DNA from: a virus
Taxonomy: Duplodnaviria > Heunggongvirae > Uroviricota > Caudoviricetes
Length of the DNA: 32,091 nt
Direction: 5' to 3' (one strand)
IMG/VR virus record: IMGVR_UViG_2609459797_000004
Coordinates: 1 to 32,091 of that record
Shown here: positions 540 through 32,091 of the stretch, piece by piece
How positions within the stretch are numbered: the stretch's first letter is position 1
Layout: every line of letters begins with the position of its first letter
The notes under the pieces: generated by a model
What the model was told of the DNA's origin: nothing
The model's database searches: none
Seen by the model: the letters and a program-made list of their open reading frames with translations, nothing else
Made by a program: the position numbers and the translations under genes

Positions 540-2708
540 TTATTGTTGCCCTGCTTGTTGCTCTGTGGGCAAAGAATCGTTATTACTGAGAAAAGCGACA
601 ATACCAACGCGGGCTAGATTTTTCTTCTCGTCCGCTGATAGCGTATTTACCCAATCCCTATATGGTTTCACTTTCTGCATTGAAGCATCCACCGATTTCC
701 TAGAGGCTGGGGTGCTGGCGTGACCTGCGGCAATCCTTTTTGAGAGATTTTTAAAAGCCGGAGATGCTATTAATTCATCAGCGGCAGCCATTCTTGAGTT
801 TTTACCAGAACGGAGGAGGCTAAAGAGTCCCCCTGCCGTACCGGCTCCAGGCGCTCCGATGGCTGTGGTTAGCCCTTCTGCTTTAGCCACGTCTTTTCCT
901 ATTCCATATATACGCCCAAGCATTCCCTTTTCTCCTGCGAACTGATTCATCATCCGGTCAATTTGAGAGGAGGAATACACCTTCTCGCTGCCCACCCTTT
1001 GCATGCCAGAAGCCACCTCATAGATGTTTCTCAACCTACGCGTAGCCGGATAGCCAATTGCCCGGCTCAATGCCTGCATATTTGATTTGTTTCTTGATAG
1101 CCCTCCATACCACTTAACAAATCCAGGAACACCAAGTGACTGCCCGGGAGATTTAGCGAACGTAGTGAAAGCCCTATTCATTGCGGTGGCAACAGCTGGT
1201 TGCACCATGTCATCAGGAAGATTTGAAACTAGGCGACGGAAGTCACCGCCCTTTCCTTGAGACATATCGACGATAGCTTGCTGTAATTGCGGCACTATTC
1301 CTTTATCCAAGTCTCTGCCAAGATTTTGAACAGCGGCTGCCTGTACTGCGAATCTCTTTCTCCCGATCTCTCTAGCTAAATTCCATGTATCCTCTGCACC
1401 ATATTTGGCAGCAGCGGCTCCCTGATCTTGTATCAGTGCGCTTTCAATAATTCCAAGGTGCCGAGCGTCGATGCCGCTATATGGCCCTTTATCCATCTCT
1501 TTGCCAAGAGCCCTTCCAACCTGCCGTCGAACTGCATCAAGAAGACCATAAGTCGGGGCGGTGTTTGGGTCTATTTGTTCCAAGGTCTTTGACAGTTGAG
1601 GATATAGCGATTTTAGTTTTTCTAGCCCACCGACATCATCTGCAATATCCTCAATGGCGTTAGTGGTATGGGTGGTATCTACGGTAGCTCTTGTTGGAAT
1701 TTTTGCTCTAATTTGATTGTATAGAGTGTCTTCTTGGCGCTTCAGGTTTGATCTTAACTCCTCATAAGAGCTTTTTACCTTTTGATTGATAAAGTCCTTA
1801 TCAACACTCCCACCAAAATCATTAATAAATTTATCTGCCTGCTCTCCAAGCCTACTAATGGCCTCTCGCTGTGCGTGGAACAGTTTATTCCCTGGGGTTG
1901 CAGCTAAAGCATTTTCAAACGCGCGGTAAGAAGGGTTTCTGGAGTACATGCCGGGAGTTAAGGCATCCTCCATCCCAAGATTGCGGGCGGCCTGTAGCAC
2001 AGAATCATCTGGTGAAACGGCTTTCGCGAGAGCATTTAAACCAGATCTGTTTCCTGTTATTGGATTCACATCTGTAGCTTTCGTTGCAACCCTCGCCATT
2101 CCACTAAGTTCAGATGCCTGAGACATTTCTGCCGATGGAGGCCTAAACCTCTTCGTAACCGCACTGGCTGCTTTACTAATCACTGGAGATGCCAATTCAG
2201 CAATTGGACCAGCGGCAGCACCTATAGCCGCCCCTGTAGTTACATTGCCACCGGTTCCGTTAGCAACAACACCACCTTCAACCGCACCAAGCCCTGCGGC
2301 GGCAGCCAGCCTTGCCGCCCCTTTCGGAACCTGAGAAATAATCCCACCACCACTAACAAATGGCGCTGCTTGTCCAACAAACTCACCAACATCTTGTGCG
2401 GTTGATGGTTTTGCCGCTAACTTCTGCTGTAGAGACTGAATTGCGGCTTGCTCTTCTGGTGTCATATCCTGAAACAGGCCAACACCTTTACCAACATCCA
2501 TCAATCCACTGAGAACGCCATACATAAAACGGTCGAAACCGTTAGCATTATTAACAACATTTTCCTGTCTGGAATTTTCCTCTGGTGAAACCAAAGGAGA
2601 TTGCTGCTGTTCTGGTTGGGAATCAAGCACAAAGCCATCAGGAAGTTGTGAGTTATCAGGCTGTTCATCCAGAACAAACCCCTCTGGTAAACCTACATTG
2701 GTTGCCAT
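540..2708 (-). CDS. Internal virion/ejection protein, P22 gp16-like (722 aa)
   Basis: Last and largest of three consecutive ejection-protein-sized ORFs downstream of the tail needle, with a Gly/Ala-rich central segment. Assigned by size and position in the P22-like gene order; homology not verified. Confidence 0.55.
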
Positions 2709-22536: not shown

Positions 22537-22629
22537 TATGCGTGGAAACGCATATGGCCTTAGTTGGTCAGATATCTTGGGGCTCGCTTTGTCAGCGACG
22601 TAGGACGAATGTCCATTGTGAAAAGAGCG
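22537..22629 (-). promoter_or_regulatory. nutR-like region: boxA-like CGCTCTTTT, boxB-like hairpin and tR1-position hairpin
   Basis: Minus-strand CGCTCTTTT (22621..22629), hairpin TCGCT-GACAA-AGCGA (22584..22598) and hairpin TATGCGT-TTCC-ACGCATA (22537..22554), all between cro and cII. Confidence 0.45.
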
Positions 22630-22636
22630 GTGTTAC

Positions 22637-22837
22637 TTATGCAGTTGTTTTTTTGTTACTTGGGAAGGGCTTTATTTCTTCCGCATAAACGCTTCCATCA
22701 GCGTTTATAGTTAAAAAAATCTTTCGGCCTGCATGAATGGCCTTGTTAATCGCGCTTTGATATACGCCGAGATCTTTAGCCGTCTTGGTTTGCCCAAAGC
22801 GTATTGCATAATCTTTCAGGGTTATGCGTTGTTCCAT
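22637..22837 (-). CDS. cro: Cro repressor, lambda type (66 aa)
   Basis: [66 protein letters not shown] differs from remembered lambda Cro at two positions. Confidence 0.92.
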
Positions 22838-22863
22838 ACAACCTCCTTAGTACAGGCAACCAT

Positions 22864-22927
22864 TATCACCGCTAGAGGTAAAATAGTCAACACGCACGGT
22901 GTTAGAAGTTTATCCCTTGCGGTGATA
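22864..22927. promoter_or_regulatory. Right operator OR1-OR2-OR3 with divergent PR/PRM, lambda type
   Basis: Three 17-bp sites: TATCACCGCTAGAGGTA (OR1), CAACACGCACGGTGTTA (OR2), TATCCCTTGCGGTGATA (OR3); lie between the cro and cI starts. Confidence 0.8.
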
Positions 22928-22934
22928 GATTTAA

Positions 22935-23651
<717 letters not shown>

Positions 23652-23682
23652 TTGTTTTATTTTTCACGTAATAGGATGATTT

Positions 23683-24024
23683 ATGACACAATTTCAACTT
23701 GCATTAATCGCTAGAGAAGTTGATGGAGAAGTCATCCATCTTCGCACCAAAGACGGATACATCAATGCCACCGCGATGTGCAAGTCTGCGGGGAAGCTAC
23801 TTGCTGACTATACACGACTAAAAACAACACAAGATTTTTTTGATGAATTATCACGCGATATGGGGATTCCCATATCGGAGTTAATTCAATCATTTAAAGG
23901 CGGAAGAGCAGAGAATCAAGGGACTTGGGTTCATCCAGACATCGCAATTAATTTAGCTCAGTGGCTATCTCCAAAATTTGCAGTGCAAGTATCGAGATGG
24001 GTGCGTGAGTGGATGTCAGGTTAA
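23683..24024 (+). CDS. KilA-N (APSES-like) domain protein, 113 aa, at the rex position
   Basis: AGGATGA ribosome-binding site; signature GYINATAMCKSAGK...DYTRLKTTQDF...GTWVHPDIAINLAQWLSPKF typical of KilA-N domains; co-oriented with cI. Confidence 0.7.
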   Translation: MTQFQLALIAREVDGEVIHLRTKDGYINATAMCKSAGKLLADYTRLKTTQDFFDELSRDMGIPISELIQSFKGGRAENQGTWVHPDIAINLAQWLSPKFAVQVSRWVREWMSG

Positions 24025-24063
24025 AGAGCGCCTGCCGAACTCCCTATCCACCTTAAGCGGTAT

Positions 24064-24442
24064 ATGACAAACCGAGGCAGAGTTCCTCATACGCACTTTT
24101 CTATGCTTAATGAACTGACGTTTAACTTGGTTGCGCCACTTGAACAGGCCGGATATACGCTGCCAGAAAAAATGGTCCCTGATATTTCAGAGGGTAGGGT
24201 TTTCTCGCAATGGCTCCGTGACAACCGGGGGGTTGAGCCGAAGACATTCCCAACATATAACCATGAGTACCCAGATGGCCGGACATTCCCGGTACGTCTA
24301 TACCCAAACGAATATTGCAGATTTCAAACAATACTTCAACGAAGTGTGGCTGCCTCAGTACGCTCCTAAATATTTTGCTGAACGAGACCAAAGGGCATTG
24401 ACGTTGATTGAGAAAATCATGCTACCTGACCTTGATTCCTAA
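24064..24442 (+). pseudogene. Interrupted coding region downstream of the KilA-N ORF (same frame to 24369, +1 frame to 24442)
   Basis: Frame-1 ORF 24064..24369 is separated from the KilA-N ORF by a single TAA. The protein-like C-terminal stretch that runs to the terminator is in the +1 frame (track ORF 24131..24442). May be a decayed gene or separate genes. Confidence 0.4.
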
Positions 24443-24450
24443 ATGTTATT

Positions 24451-24477
24451 CCCGGCCACAGAGCCGGGTTTTCTTTG
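24451..24477 (+). terminator. Intrinsic terminator after the cI-operon cargo
   Basis: CCCGGC-CACAGA-GCCGGG hairpin followed by TTTTCTTTG, 9 nt after the 24442 stop. Confidence 0.6.
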
Positions 24478-24628
24478 CCTCACGATCCCCCTCACCCAAG
24501 AACACATAACCAATTGTATCTATTTGAAAATAAATAGATACAACTCACTAAACATAGCAGTTCAGATCTCTCACCTACCAAACAATGCACCCCTGCAAAA
24601 AATAAATTCATATAAAAAACATACAGAT

Positions 24629-24690
24629 AACCATCTGCGGTGATGAATTATCTCTAGCGGTGTTGACATAAATACCACTGGCGGTGATAC
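24629..24690 (+). promoter_or_regulatory. Left operator OL3-OL2-OL1 with PL promoter, lambda type
   Basis: AACCATCTGCGGTGATG (OL3), TATCTCTAGCGGTGTTG (OL2), TACCACTGGCGGTGATA (OL1); -35 TTGACA at 24663..24668 and -10 GATACT at 24685..24690, directed toward the N gene. Confidence 0.8.
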
Positions 24691-24759
24691 TAAACACATC
24701 AGCAGGACGCACTACTCACCAGGGCGGTGAATATACAACGATTCGAATATGAATCTACG

Positions 24760-24774
24760 GCGCTGACAAAGCGC
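24760..24774 (+). promoter_or_regulatory. nutL boxB-like hairpin (P22-type GACAA loop)
   Basis: GCGCT-GACAA-AGCGC, about 75 nt downstream of the PL -10 and about 260 nt upstream of the N start. Confidence 0.5.
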
Positions 24775-25035
24775 AATAACCAAAGTGAACTTTGGGGTGT
24801 GGTGAAGCCAGCTAGTCACTGGCAAGTGCTTACCTACTGTTGAGCGGTGAAGCGCTCCCAACGCTAGCAATAGCGTGGACGAGATGGGGAGCCGCGGGCG
24901 ATAAGGCCGCCATAACGCGCACGTTGTCGCATGGAAAAATCACTGGGGTGCCGGTTATACCCCTCCGAATGAGACTCAACAAGCTGGAGCTAGACTACCA
25001 GCCACCACACCACCAAAGTTCATCAGGAGGTCTAT

Positions 25036-25419
25036 ATGACACGCAGAACTCAGTTCAAAGGCAATTCACGTTCTCGTCGTCGTGAGCGTTTAAAGGCAAA
25101 GGCATTAGCTAACGGCGTACTGGCCCGCGAAGAAGCAATAAGTTCAGAAGTATTACACCGCCCTACTCTAAGCAGAGCGCAGATTCAGGCTAAAGGTACT
25201 CACGAAACGCCTGAGCGCAAAGAAGACGCTAAGCCAATTAAGTTCATGGCACAGGACGTGATCTGGCAACAGAAAGAATACAGACGCAATCTGGAGCGAG
25301 CGGCCATTGTGTACGCGAATGAGTTTGGACATAAGCAACCAGAAACTGGTGTATGTCTTCCAAACGTAGCCATTTACGCGGCAGGCTACCGGAAATCAAA
25401 ACAACTGACAGCGAGGTAA
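25036..25419 (+). CDS. N-type transcription antiterminator, P22 gene 24-like (127 aa)
   Basis: N-terminal arginine-rich motif (RSRRRERLKAKALA); C-terminus CLPNVAIYAAGYRKSKQLTAR matches the remembered P22 gp24 C-terminus; GGAGG ribosome-binding site. Confidence 0.75.
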   Translation: MTRRTQFKGNSRSRRRERLKAKALANGVLAREEAISSEVLHRPTLSRAQIQAKGTHETPERKEDAKPIKFMAQDVIWQQKEYRRNLERAAIVYANEFGHKQPETGVCLPNVAIYAAGYRKSKQLTAR

Positions 25420-25422
25420 GTG

Positions 25423-25647
25423 ATGAATCAGACATACATTCCATCATGCTTGAGAAATCTGCCAAAGCAGAAAGCAAAGCCCCGCAAGCAAGCCATAAAG
25501 GACGCTAAGGCAGAGGTTATTGATCAAGCAATACAATTGCTCAGGGAGGAGTTAAGAAGTGGCAAGCTCGAAGGAATGATGATTCCCTATCAGCGCGGAT
25601 ATCTATCGGCGATTAGTAAGTTGGAAGTATTGAAGAGTGAATTATGA
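25423..25647 (+). CDS. Hypothetical early protein (74 aa)
   Basis: ATG 4 nt after the N stop; basic and helical; track ORF starts at the GTG at 25420. Confidence 0.4.
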   Translation: MNQTYIPSCLRNLPKQKAKPRKQAIKDAKAEVIDQAIQLLREELRSGKLEGMMIPYQRGYLSAISKLEVLKSEL

Positions 25648-26336
25648 ACTATCTGGAATTTCCGGATGGTTCATTGTTTTGGCAGCAAACCACTTATTTG
25701 AGAGGAATTAATATGTCATCAATCCGCTTAACTACGAGAATGAAAGAGGAAATCGCTCGTAACGCTTTAATTAAGTCTGGGGTTTTCACTGAACTTGAAG
25801 AAGTAACAAAGTTAAAGAACCAGCTTGCACTTGACGCCAGAGTTATTGCGTTTGGCGGTAAAAAGAAAACTGAGGAAGTGGATCAGTTATCATCCAAGTT
25901 GGTAGCTATAAGTGAAGAACTTGGAAAGATGGGATGTTCATTTTACTCATACGATGTTCGTTCTACTTCAATTTATCTGACTGTATCTGGCAGAAGGGTT
26001 GGATGGCTTTCATATGGGAAAGACGGCAACGGCGAAGATATATTGCTCCCTGCTCCGAACGAAGATAAATGCATGTTTAGCGCAGAACACGAAATAACAA
26101 AAAGGTTTGATGAAATCTGCGCATTGCAACAAAAACTTGAAGCCAAGAAAAAGGATATCGAATCAAATGTATGGGCTGCTTTGAACTCAGTCACAACAGT
26201 TAAGCGACTTATTGAGGTTTGGCCTGAAAGCAAAGAATTGCTACCAAAAGAAGCAGATAAAGCAAGTACAGCACTTCCTGCTTTACGGGTAGAAGATTTG
26301 AATAAGATGATTGGACTTCCTTCCGAGGCCGCATAG
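25644..26336 (+). CDS. Hypothetical early protein (230 aa), function unknown
   Basis: Start overlaps the upstream stop (ATGA); an alternative internal start MSSIRL at 25713 has a GAGG ribosome-binding site; ends inside a terminator hairpin. Confidence 0.45.
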   Translation: MNYLEFPDGSLFWQQTTYLRGINMSSIRLTTRMKEEIARNALIKSGVFTELEEVTKLKNQLALDARVIAFGGKKKTEEVDQLSSKLVAISEELGKMGCSFYSYDVRSTSIYLTVSGRRVGWLSYGKDGNGEDILLPAPNEDKCMFSAEHEITKRFDEICALQQKLEAKKKDIESNVWAALNSVTTVKRLIEVWPESKELLPKEADKASTALPALRVEDLNKMIGLPSEAA

Positions 26337-31824: not shown

Positions 31825-31846
31825 GCCGCCTGATGGCGGTTTTTTA
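31825..31846 (+). terminator. Intrinsic terminator between the ea-region and the xis-like gene
   Basis: GCCGCC-TGAT-GGCGG hairpin followed by TTTTTTATT. Confidence 0.55.
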
Positions 31847-31890
31847 TTGCCTGATTTGCAGGTTCGATTCCCTATTCGGAGATAGCACTC

Positions 31891-32091
31891 ATGCAACACG
31901 AACTACAACCTGATTCACTGGTTGATTTGAAATTCATCATGGCTGATACTGGCTTTGGTAAAACCTTCATCTATGACCGGATTAAGTCCGGAGACCTGCC
32001 AAAAGCCAAAGTTATCCACGGGCGAGCAAGATGGTTATATCGTGACCATTGTGAATTCAAAAATAAGCTCTTAAGCCGCGCCAATGGGTAA
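31891..32091 (+). CDS. AlpA/Xis-family small DNA-binding protein (excisionase-like, 66 aa)
   Basis: LKFIMADTGFGKTFIYDRIKSGDLPKAKVIHGRARW fits the AlpA/excisionase HTH pattern; GGAG ribosome-binding site; last gene before the window end, where int would be expected. Confidence 0.65.
   Translation: MQHELQPDSLVDLKFIMADTGFGKTFIYDRIKSGDLPKAKVIHGRARWLYRDHCEFKNKLLSRANG

What the first reader, a model, noticed from the sequence alone, without database searches (positions are those of the whole stretch)
24022..24442. One reading frame broken by a single TAA and a +1 frame switch
The KilA-N ORF and ORF 24064..24369 are in the same frame, separated only by TAA at 24022..24024, and the 39 nt between them stay open. 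The protein-like C-terminal sequence (...NIADFKQYFNEVWLPQYAPKYFAERDQRALTLIEKIMLPDLDS) is in the +1 frame and overlaps the frame-1 ORF by over 200 nt. This pattern suggests a ~250-aa ancestral gene inactivated by a nonsense and a frameshift mutation, or assembly errors, or recoding.
Basis: seen in the sequence. Interest (0 to 1): 0.6.

Follow-up and report, generated by a model that had tools for sequence, protein, structure and literature searches.

The report
Broken BstA phage-defence gene in prophage
This is a dead or truncated copy of a known prophage anti-phage defence gene (BstA family), broken by one stop codon and one 2-base deletion; the damage is real and common in E. coli prophages, so it is an ordinary pseudogene and not recoding or a sequencing error.

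Summary
ORF 23683..24024 (113 aa, a complete KilA-N domain) ends at TAA 24022..24024. The same frame stays open into ORF 24064..24369, and the protein-like tail ending at 24442 lies in the +1 frame.

Intact 253-aa genes sit at the same locus in E. coli G1/2 and phage PhiR5_2. Against them (99.4% identity over the 811-nt stretch) the window has four changes:
- G->T at 24022 (GAA->TAA, E114*)
- a 2-bp deletion at 24314-24316
- a synonymous A at 23691
- T at 24332 (H->Y)

The intact protein belongs to the BstA abortive-infection family:
- PHROG 6287, E 1.8e-82, full length
- PADLOC BstA, E 2.5e-20
- profile against BstA of phage BTP1, 99.1% probability

The cassette (23653..24450) exactly replaces rexA-rexB in a lambda-type immunity region, downstream of cI.

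The same four-change haplotype occurs in about 27 independent assemblies that I read. Its exact 113-aa product is recorded on at least 1000 contigs. Assembly error and recoding are therefore rejected.

The TAA falls exactly at the domain boundary. It also occurs, without the deletion, on other allele backgrounds, where it appears to have arrived by short-patch recombination.

Verdict: an ordinary but widespread pseudogene of a known defence gene. Low interest.

The parts
22938..23651 (+). cI repressor, 237 aa, first gene of the operon. The lambda immunity region (cro-OR-cI) is 96.3% identical in DNA to lambda, and that homology ends 1 nt past the cI stop.
   Evidence: Pfam HTH_3 and Peptidase_S24. 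blastn places window 22623..23652 against lambda 38255..37226 at 96.3%.
23653..24450 (+). 798-bp bstA-type cassette that exactly replaces lambda rexA-rexB (1402 bp).
   Evidence: Lambda homology stops at 23652 (lambda 37226, just past the cI stop). It resumes at 24451 (lambda 35824, 1 nt past the rexB stop).
23654..23716 (.). Position equivalent (-29..+34 around the start codon) of the 63-bp aba self-immunity DNA element of BTP1. This is inferred from position only. It contains the haplotype-private A at 23691.
   Evidence: Owen et al. 2021 (PMC8585504) map aba to 29 bp upstream plus the first 34 bp of bstA. No sequence similarity and no terminal direct repeat was found here. A23691 is unique to the broken haplotype.
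23673..23676 (+). Shine-Dalgarno-like AGGA, 6 nt before the ATG at 23683.
   Evidence: Read from the sequence. Conserved in close alleles.
23683..24024 (+). Truncated ORF of 113 aa, a complete KilA-N domain, ending at the premature TAA.
   Evidence: Pfam PF04383 KilA-N, E 1.7e-27, residues 13-112 on profile positions 4-106 of 107. The product is identical to WP_227164514.1.
24022..24024 (+). Nonsense codon TAA (GAA->TAA, E114*; G->T at 24022), exactly at the boundary between the KilA-N and BstA_C domains.
   Evidence: Alignment A1, site check. The hhalign match to BstA of BTP1 begins at residue 114.
24025..24315 (+). In-frame continuation encoding residues 115-211 of the ancestral protein (linker plus the first two thirds of the BstA_C domain). 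It is no longer translated from the native start. It contains the ATG at 24064, which has a poor ribosome-binding site.
   Evidence: tblastn residues 1-211 on 23683..24315. PADLOC BstA matches residues 120-237 of the intact protein.
24314..24316 (+). Junction of the 2-bp deletion (TC or CT lost from GAATATCTTGCAG), which shifts the remainder into the +1 frame.
24317..24442 (+). Last 41 codons of the ancestral gene plus the stop, now in the +1 frame. Carries T24332 (H->Y).
   Evidence: tblastn second match. The gene caller's 55-aa ORF on identical loci is hit by PF26567 BstA_C (weak).
24451..24476 (+). Rho-independent terminator (CCCGGC-loop-GCCGGG followed by a T run), homologous to the lambda sequence just downstream of rexB.
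   Evidence: Terminator scan. Lambda homology from 24451.
24663..24691 (+). Lambda-type PL promoter within OL, followed by N at 25036..25419.
   Evidence: TTGACA-17-GATACT. Lambda homology 24451..24730. Pfam N_peptide for 25036..25419.

Best explanation
Window 23683..24442 is an inactivated or truncated allele of a BstA-family prophage abortive-infection gene (KilA-N domain plus BstA_C domain, 253 aa when intact).

The gene is the last gene of the cI operon of a lambda-immunity, HK620/Sf6-like E. coli prophage. It sits exactly where lambda carries rexA-rexB.

Two real, inherited mutations broke it. GAA->TAA at codon 114 lies at the interdomain boundary. A later 2-bp deletion at codon 212 shifted the frame. 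The locus can therefore make at most a stand-alone 113-aa KilA-N domain and no BstA_C domain.

Inferred consequences:
- The prophage no longer provides BstA-type abortive infection.
- The 5' DNA segment, where BTP1 carries its aba self-immunity element, is still present.

The broken haplotype is young (almost no variation) but widely disseminated with the immunity module.
For: Shown:
- Two point lesions relative to intact alleles that are 99.4% identical and sit at the same locus.
- Family assignment of the intact protein: PHROG 6287 'BstA abortive infection system', E 1.8e-82 over residues 1-252. PADLOC BstA E 2.5e-20 on residues 120-237. BLASTP against BstA of BTP1, 29% identity over 133 aa, E 5e-15. 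Subfamily profile against BstA of BTP1, 99.1% probability, E 6e-19, residues 114-251 against 152-301. PF26567 BstA_C on the +1-frame tail. Pfam KilA-N on residues 13-112.
- Locus: immediately downstream of the repressor gene, as described for BstA (PMC8585504). It precisely replaces rexAB. No promoter or terminator match lies between cI and the gene, and a terminator follows at 24451.
- The lesions are real. The same four-variant haplotype is present in every one of 35 loci examined that carry the TAA at >99% identity, from about 27 independent sources. The exact 113-aa product is on at least 1000 contigs in 1970 index blocks.
- Order of events. TAA occurs without the deletion on other backgrounds (H6/H5/L062, L139). 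A Klebsiella 113-aa form with an intact C-terminal ORF suggests a further background (its DNA was not read). The deletion was never seen without TAA.
- Diverged homologues are single intact ORFs of 250-273 aa.

Inferred: co-transcription with cI from PRM/PRE, by analogy with the lambda cI-rexA-rexB operon; loss of defence; retention of an aba-like element.
Against: - The defence activity of this 253-aa subfamily has not been tested experimentally. It shares only the C-terminal domain detectably with BstA of BTP1 and is shorter than the three tested BstA proteins.
- PGAP annotates the 113-aa ORF as an ordinary protein. It contains a complete KilA-N domain, so 'pseudogene' may overstate the loss if that domain has its own activity.
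- The broken haplotype is about as abundant as the intact one (at least 1000 contigs against 924). That is unusual for a neutral defect, although it could be explained by hitch-hiking or sampling.
- No aba-like repeat could be recognised.
Confidence: 0.88

Rival explanations
1. Selected truncation or gene fission. On this reading the stop at the domain boundary is not neutral decay. It is favoured because it removes a costly abortive-infection effector domain while keeping a stand-alone KilA-N DNA-binding protein and the 5' aba-like DNA. The result would be a prophage that escapes cognate BstA without paying for it, or whose KilA-N domain antagonises BstA. In alleles without the 2-bp deletion, the two halves might even work as two polypeptides.
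For: - TAA lies exactly at the interdomain boundary.
- It is found on three read allele backgrounds (A*, H6*, L139) and probably a fourth in Klebsiella. In H6* it arrived within a 75-bp recombination patch: 5 of 5 differences from intact L060 fall in 24022-24096.
- The truncated product is recorded on at least 1000 contigs against 924 for the intact one. In IMG/VR, 9 contigs carry TAA and 23 carry GAA for the same flanks.
- Many other independent truncations exist in the family.
- Owen et al. note natural homologues containing only the N-terminal or only the C-terminal domain.
Against: - In the window haplotype the C-terminal half has also suffered a frameshift and a missense change, as expected for decay after inactivation.
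- The A* haplotype is nearly invariant, so there is no signal of purifying selection on the 113-aa ORF: 1 synonymous change in the N-terminal part and a few changes in the C-terminal part, which is not significant.
- Abundance can be explained by hitch-hiking with a successful lambda-immunity module or by clonal sampling.
- The ATG at 24064 has a poor ribosome-binding site.
- There are no experimental data.
Confidence: 0.1
2. Sequencing or assembly artefact: the gene is really intact and the stop and frameshift are errors.
For: A 2-bp indel and a single-base change are the kind of error some platforms make. Strain 81, one carrier, does show extra error-like indels in neighbouring genes.
Against: - The identical lesions are present in about 27 independent assemblies from different laboratories, countries and data types.
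- They are always linked with two further substitutions.
- The deletion is not in a homopolymer.
Confidence: 0.01
3. Programmed recoding: stop-codon readthrough at TAA plus a +1 ribosomal frameshift near 24315 yields a full-length protein.
For: The frame stays open after the TAA, and the tail is readable in the +1 frame.
Against: - Alleles 99.4% identical have a plain sense codon and no shift.
- Diverged homologues are single ORFs.
- TAA is an efficient terminator in E. coli (established knowledge).
- The shift site GAA-TAT-TGC has no slippery run, no in-frame stop and no upstream Shine-Dalgarno stimulator of the prfB type.
- Two independent low-efficiency events would be required.
Confidence: 0.01

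Closest known systems
BstA of Salmonella prophage BTP1 (st313-td; Owen et al. 2021, PMC8585504), with BstA-Ec and BstA-Kp
   Same: [quoted passage not shown] - The C-terminal domain is homologous (99.1% hhalign probability; PADLOC BstA; PHROG 6287).
   Different: - The intact form is shorter: 253 aa against 307 for BTP1. BstA-Ec is about 298 aa, judged from the 897-bp coordinate span in the paper's Table S1; the length of BstA-Kp was not checked.
- The N-terminal domain is a canonical Pfam KilA-N with no BLASTP-detectable similarity to the BTP1 N-terminus.
- No aba-like CCCGCC direct repeats were found.
- Defence by this subfamily is untested.
- The copy in the window is broken (E114* plus a 2-bp deletion).
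Lambda rexA-rexB, the abortive-infection/exclusion genes of the cI operon
   Same: Identical genomic slot. The cassette begins 2 nt after the cI stop and ends at the sequence that follows rexB in lambda. By inference it is expressed in the lysogen with cI. Both are exclusion or abortive-infection functions.
   Different: No sequence relationship. One gene instead of two. A KilA-N/BstA_C protein instead of the RexA sensor and RexB membrane protein.
Ordinary prophage pseudogenes (point-mutational decay of accessory 'moron' genes)
   Same: A nonsense mutation plus a frameshift, with a later missense change downstream. Several carriers are visibly degraded prophages: an IS1 insertion or missing replication genes in 1008S19, and truncated N in EC2641 and L009.
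   Different: The prophage in this window looks complete in its regulatory and replication modules. The broken haplotype is unusually widespread.

Membership tests
BstA prophage abortive-infection family | C-terminal BstA_C domain homologous to BstA of BTP1 | tested here: met
   For the ancestral or intact sequence: PADLOC BstA E 2.5e-20; BLASTP E 5e-15; hhalign 99.1%, E 6e-19; PF26567 on the +1-frame tail. In the window the domain is split across two frames and lies downstream of a stop.
BstA prophage abortive-infection family | N-terminal KilA-N or KilA-N-like domain | tested here: met
   Pfam PF04383, E 1.7e-27, residues 13-112. PHROG 6287 covers residues 1-252.
BstA prophage abortive-infection family | Located downstream of the prophage repressor gene in the immunity region (frequent, not universal) | tested here: met
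   The gene starts 31 nt after the cI stop, and PL/N follow. The arrangement matches BTP1.
BstA prophage abortive-infection family | A single intact ORF encoding both domains | tested here: not met
   E114* (TAA 24022..24024) and the 2-bp deletion at 24314-24316. The window copy is therefore a pseudogene or truncated derivative of a family member, not a functional member.
BstA prophage abortive-infection family | A cognate aba DNA element overlapping the 5' end of the gene that suppresses BstA | not testable with these tools
   aba elements are specific to each homologue and are defined only functionally. No similarity to BTP1 aba and no terminal direct repeat in 23620..23780.
BstA prophage abortive-infection family | Confers abortive infection by blocking phage DNA replication | not testable with these tools
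   Needs plaque, efficiency-of-plating and survival assays with the intact 253-aa allele and with the window allele.
Programmed recoding site (readthrough or +1 frameshift) | The recoding signal and split frames are conserved across diverged homologues | tested here: not met
   In the top-80 IMG/VR sample of relatives, the 69 undisrupted copies are single ORFs of 250-273 aa. The split occurs only in near-identical haplotypes.

The most novel reading that the evidence does not exclude
The E114* stop at the KilA-N/BstA_C boundary may be a selected polymorphism and not neutral decay. It has been moved by short-patch recombination onto several allele backgrounds. In its A* form it is as common as the intact gene.

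Prophages carrying it would drop the costly abortive-infection effector. They would keep the 5' aba-type self-immunity DNA and a stand-alone KilA-N DNA-binding protein. That would make them 'cheaters', or BstA antagonists, that can still replicate in hosts defended by the cognate intact BstA.
Probability: 0.1. Interest if true: 0.6.

Novelty: already known. Interest (0 to 1): 0.22.

Why it matters
This matters mainly for annotation. RefSeq lists the 113-aa fragment (WP_227164514.1) as an ordinary 'KilA-N domain-containing protein' and leaves the remaining 420 nt unannotated. Defence-system finders would then either miss the locus or miscount it.

Recognising it as a broken bstA-type gene in the rexAB slot has two uses:
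- It shows that the lambda immunity module exchanges abortive-infection cassettes.
- It shows that this cassette is often inactivated in nature, through several independent truncations.

If the loss proved to be selected, it would bear on the cost of prophage-borne abortive infection, and on whether aba-type self-immunity DNA can outlive its partner protein. Nothing found here demonstrates that.

Tried and rejected
- Rfam gathering scan of the whole window: no RNA family. tRNA scan: none.
- NCBIfam: no model for the intact protein.
- PDB by sequence: only marginal matches to the Mbp1 DNA-binding domain, E ~0.04.
- The local Pfam copy lacks BstA_C. Even BstA of BTP1 hits nothing in it, so the absence of a C-terminal Pfam hit carries no information.
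- Search for aba-like terminal direct repeats around the start codon: none, only short inverted repeats of 6-7 nt that I regard as chance.
- Independent recurrence of TAA in the H6 allele: considered and rejected in favour of a recombination patch. All 5 differences between H6* and intact L060 lie within 75 bp. Given the first difference, the chance of that clustering is about (75/760)^4, or 1e-4.
- Test for purifying selection on the truncated ORF within the A* haplotype: too little variation to say anything.
The genome-contig scan for the TAA pattern found nothing.
- The antisense ORFs inside the region (24087..24224 and 24122..24391, minus strand) have no support in any annotation and were treated as chance.
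- I did not run the large protein-database searches or structure prediction, because family assignment and domain limits were already clear.

Full report
**1. The observation**

The window has an ORF at 23683..24024 (113 aa) that ends at TAA 24022..24024. The next 39 nt contain no stop and translate as RAPAELPIHLKRY. The ATG at 24064 opens a 101-aa ORF in the same frame, since 23683 and 24064 are both 1 mod 3. A 103-aa ORF, 24131..24442, lies in the +1 frame and overlaps it by 239 nt.

On its own the pattern is weak. A 13-codon open gap occurs by chance about half the time. Most of the +1-frame overlap is also chance openness.

**2. Comparison with intact genes**

A megablast of 23660..24470 against complete E. 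coli genomes found 139 genomes with a related gene. Of these, 22 carry close alleles of 95% identity or more.
- Fifteen are 99.4% identical and 2 bp longer than the window.
- In E. coli G1/2 the stretch is annotated as one 762-nt gene for a 253-aa 'KilA-N domain-containing protein' (WP_000191544.1). In phage PhiR5_2 it is one 762-nt gene for a 253-aa 'hypothetical protein'.
- In both it lies between the cI repressor gene and N.

The DNA alignment and a site check show exactly four differences in the window:
- A for G at 23691 (codon 3, synonymous)
- T for G at 24022 (GAA->TAA, E114*)
- loss of 2 bp from GAATATCTTGCAG, with the junction at 24314-24316
- T for C at 24332 (His->Tyr in the ancestral frame)

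tblastn of the intact protein against the window confirms this. Residues 1-211 match 23683..24315 with the stop as the only difference. The tail from residue 213 matches in the +1 frame up to 24439.

**3. What the gene is**

- The 113-aa product is a complete Pfam KilA-N domain (PF04383, E 1.7e-27, residues 13-112).
- The intact protein matches PHROG 6287, 'BstA abortive infection system, replication inhibitor', over its whole length (E 1.8e-82).
- It matches the PADLOC BstA model over residues 120-237 (E 2.5e-20).
- I fetched BstA of Salmonella phage BTP1 by searching for its published 63-bp aba element. BLASTP gives 29% identity over 133 C-terminal residues (E 5e-15).
- A profile of 18 diverse members of this subfamily (A3) matches BstA of BTP1 with 99.1% probability (E 6e-19), residues 114-251 against 152-301.
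- The gene caller's 55-aa +1-frame ORF on identical contigs carries a precomputed hit to PF26567 BstA_C. My local Pfam copy does not contain that model.

Owen et al. 2021 (PMC8585504) describe BstA as a prophage abortive-infection protein. [quoted passage not shown] It is encoded just downstream of cI and is strongly expressed in lysogens. Its self-immunity comes from a cognate DNA element, aba, which spans 29 bp upstream and the first 34 bp of the gene.

**4. The locus**

The window is an HK620/Sf6-like (P22-like) E. coli prophage with cII, cro, cI, O, a DnaB-type helicase, Q and N. Its immunity region is of the lambda type.
- Homology to lambda cro-OR-cI (96.3%) ends at window 23652, 1 nt past the cI stop.
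- Homology resumes at window 24451, which corresponds to the base after the rexB stop codon.
- It then runs through the terminator hairpin (24451..24468) and OL/PL (promoter 24663..24691) to 24730.

The 798-bp cassette 23653..24450 therefore replaces rexA-rexB precisely.

The scan found no promoter or terminator between cI and the gene. A good AGGA lies 6 nt before the ATG. By analogy with the lambda cI-rexA-rexB operon (established knowledge), I infer that the gene is transcribed with cI in the lysogen.

**5. Are the lesions real?**

Yes. The same four-variant haplotype, which I call A*, is present in:
- EC2641, 1008S19 and strain 81
- all 10 NCBI/ENA places returned for the exact 113-aa protein, which have different flanking prophage genes
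- 8 IMG/VR contigs
- 5 further metagenome contigs

Across these sources the 798-bp cassette is almost invariant.

The intact 253-aa protein is recorded on 924 contigs. In IMG/VR the exact flanks occur with TAA on 9 contigs and with GAA on 23.

No complete E. coli genome in the collection contains the whole window. The window is therefore yet another source. Assembly error is excluded.

**6. Recoding**

Recoding is excluded for practical purposes.
- Alleles that differ by four positions have a sense codon and no shift.
- Homologues down to about 41% identity are single ORFs of 250-273 aa.
- The shift site GAA-TAT-TGC has no slippery sequence, no in-frame stop and no stimulator.
- Two separate events would be needed.

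**7. History of the two lesions**

TAA at the same codon occurs without the deletion in three other settings:
- the H6/H5/L062 allele, which is 96% identical to the window
- a mosaic metagenome haplotype, L139
- probably a Klebsiella allele, represented by a 113-aa N-terminal protein on 62 contigs paired with an intact 113-aa C-terminal ORF on 82 contigs (its DNA was not seen)

The H6 allele is identical to the intact allele L060 over 23683..24021 and over 24101..24442. It differs at five sites, all within 24022..24096. That clustering indicates a short recombination patch that brought in the TAA, not an independent mutation.

I never saw the 2-bp deletion without the TAA. The likely order is the nonsense mutation first. 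The deletion, the H->Y change and the synonymous A23691 then followed on the A background. That is the order expected for decay of an untranslated 3' half.

**8. Wider pattern**

The same 90%-identity protein family contains many other truncated forms, of 69, 81, 93, 101, 124, 144, 175, 176 and 239 aa. IMG/VR adds W177* (L033) and a stop at codon 179 (L088). A G6 run at 24226-24231 gains or loses a G in several relatives.

This defence gene is therefore inactivated repeatedly in nature. That is compatible with a cost of abortive infection or with ordinary prophage decay. I cannot tell the two apart.

**9. Consequences (inferred, not shown)**

- The prophage can make at most a stand-alone KilA-N domain and no BstA_C domain, so BstA-type defence should be lost. 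The stop falls at residue 114, exactly where the homology to the C-terminal domain of BTP1 BstA begins.
- The frameshift also removes invariant or nearly invariant C-terminal residues (W223, Y231, F232, D236, A239, L240).
- The 5' segment that corresponds in position to aba (23654..23716) is retained. It contains the one substitution private to the broken haplotype (A23691).
- I found no sequence similarity to BTP1 aba and no terminal direct repeats. The paper says aba elements are specific to each homologue, so this cannot be judged by computation.

**10. Verdict**

The thing itself is an ordinary pseudogene or truncated allele of a known defence family, in a known type of location. The truncated product is already in RefSeq.

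The only mildly unusual features are these:
- the abundance of the broken haplotype
- the stop lying exactly at the domain boundary
- the spread of that stop by recombination onto several allele backgrounds

These leave a small chance, which I put at about 10%, that the truncation is selected. Interest is low (0.22).

Noticed in passing
window 22623..23652 and 24451..24730: The immunity region is of the lambda type: cro-OR-cI is 96% identical to lambda and OL/PL is 92% identical. rexA-rexB is cleanly swapped for the 798-bp bstA-type cassette. The joints lie 1 nt past the cI stop and 1 nt past the position of the rexB stop.
   Followed up: yes
window 24730..25419: Lambda homology ends at 24730, just after the PL start. 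The N protein (25036..25419, Pfam N_peptide) lies outside the lambda-homologous DNA, so it appears not to be lambda N. A mosaic joint therefore lies inside the PL leader, before nutL.
   Followed up: partly
window 25644..26336 (+): The gene just downstream of N encodes an Nmad5 protein (PF18757, nucleotide-modification-associated domain 5; E 2.5e-71) in the early-left operon.
   Followed up: no
window 24226..24231: A G6 run inside the dead C-terminal half is an indel hot spot in relatives: +G in L059/L109, -G in L007, and a frameshifted 239-aa form P0015.
   Followed up: partly
L003 (E. coli H6) 1525..2286; L062; L139: TAA at the same codon 114 occurs without the 2-bp deletion on other allele backgrounds. 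H6 differs from the intact allele L060 only by five sites within 24022..24096 (window numbering), a short recombination patch. L139 is a mosaic of A-type and H6-type segments.
   Followed up: yes
L033 and L088 (IMG/VR); proteins P0004, P0006-P0009, P0012, P0015: There are further independent truncations of the same gene family: Q176*, W177*, a stop at codon 179, and forms of 69, 81, 93, 124 and 239 aa, in E. coli, Klebsiella, Raoultella and Enterobacter. The gene is inactivated repeatedly.
   Followed up: partly
window 23691: The synonymous A (CAA for CAG, codon 3) is private to the broken haplotype among 57 loci compared. It lies within the stretch that corresponds in position to the BTP1 aba self-immunity element.
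   Followed up: partly
L001 and L008 (EC2641, 1008S19) and L009, L011, L016: Several carriers of the broken allele are visibly degraded prophages. Examples are an IS1 insertion in place of the replication genes, N reduced to a fragment, and DnaB or Q genes placed directly next to cII. The prophage in this window keeps its O, DnaB-type helicase, Q and N genes.
   Followed up: partly
window 31836..32091: The right end of the window matches the region of the TorI-type excisionase gene (torI) seen at the prophage end next to dsdC in 1008S19. This suggests integration at the KplE1-type site.
   Followed up: no
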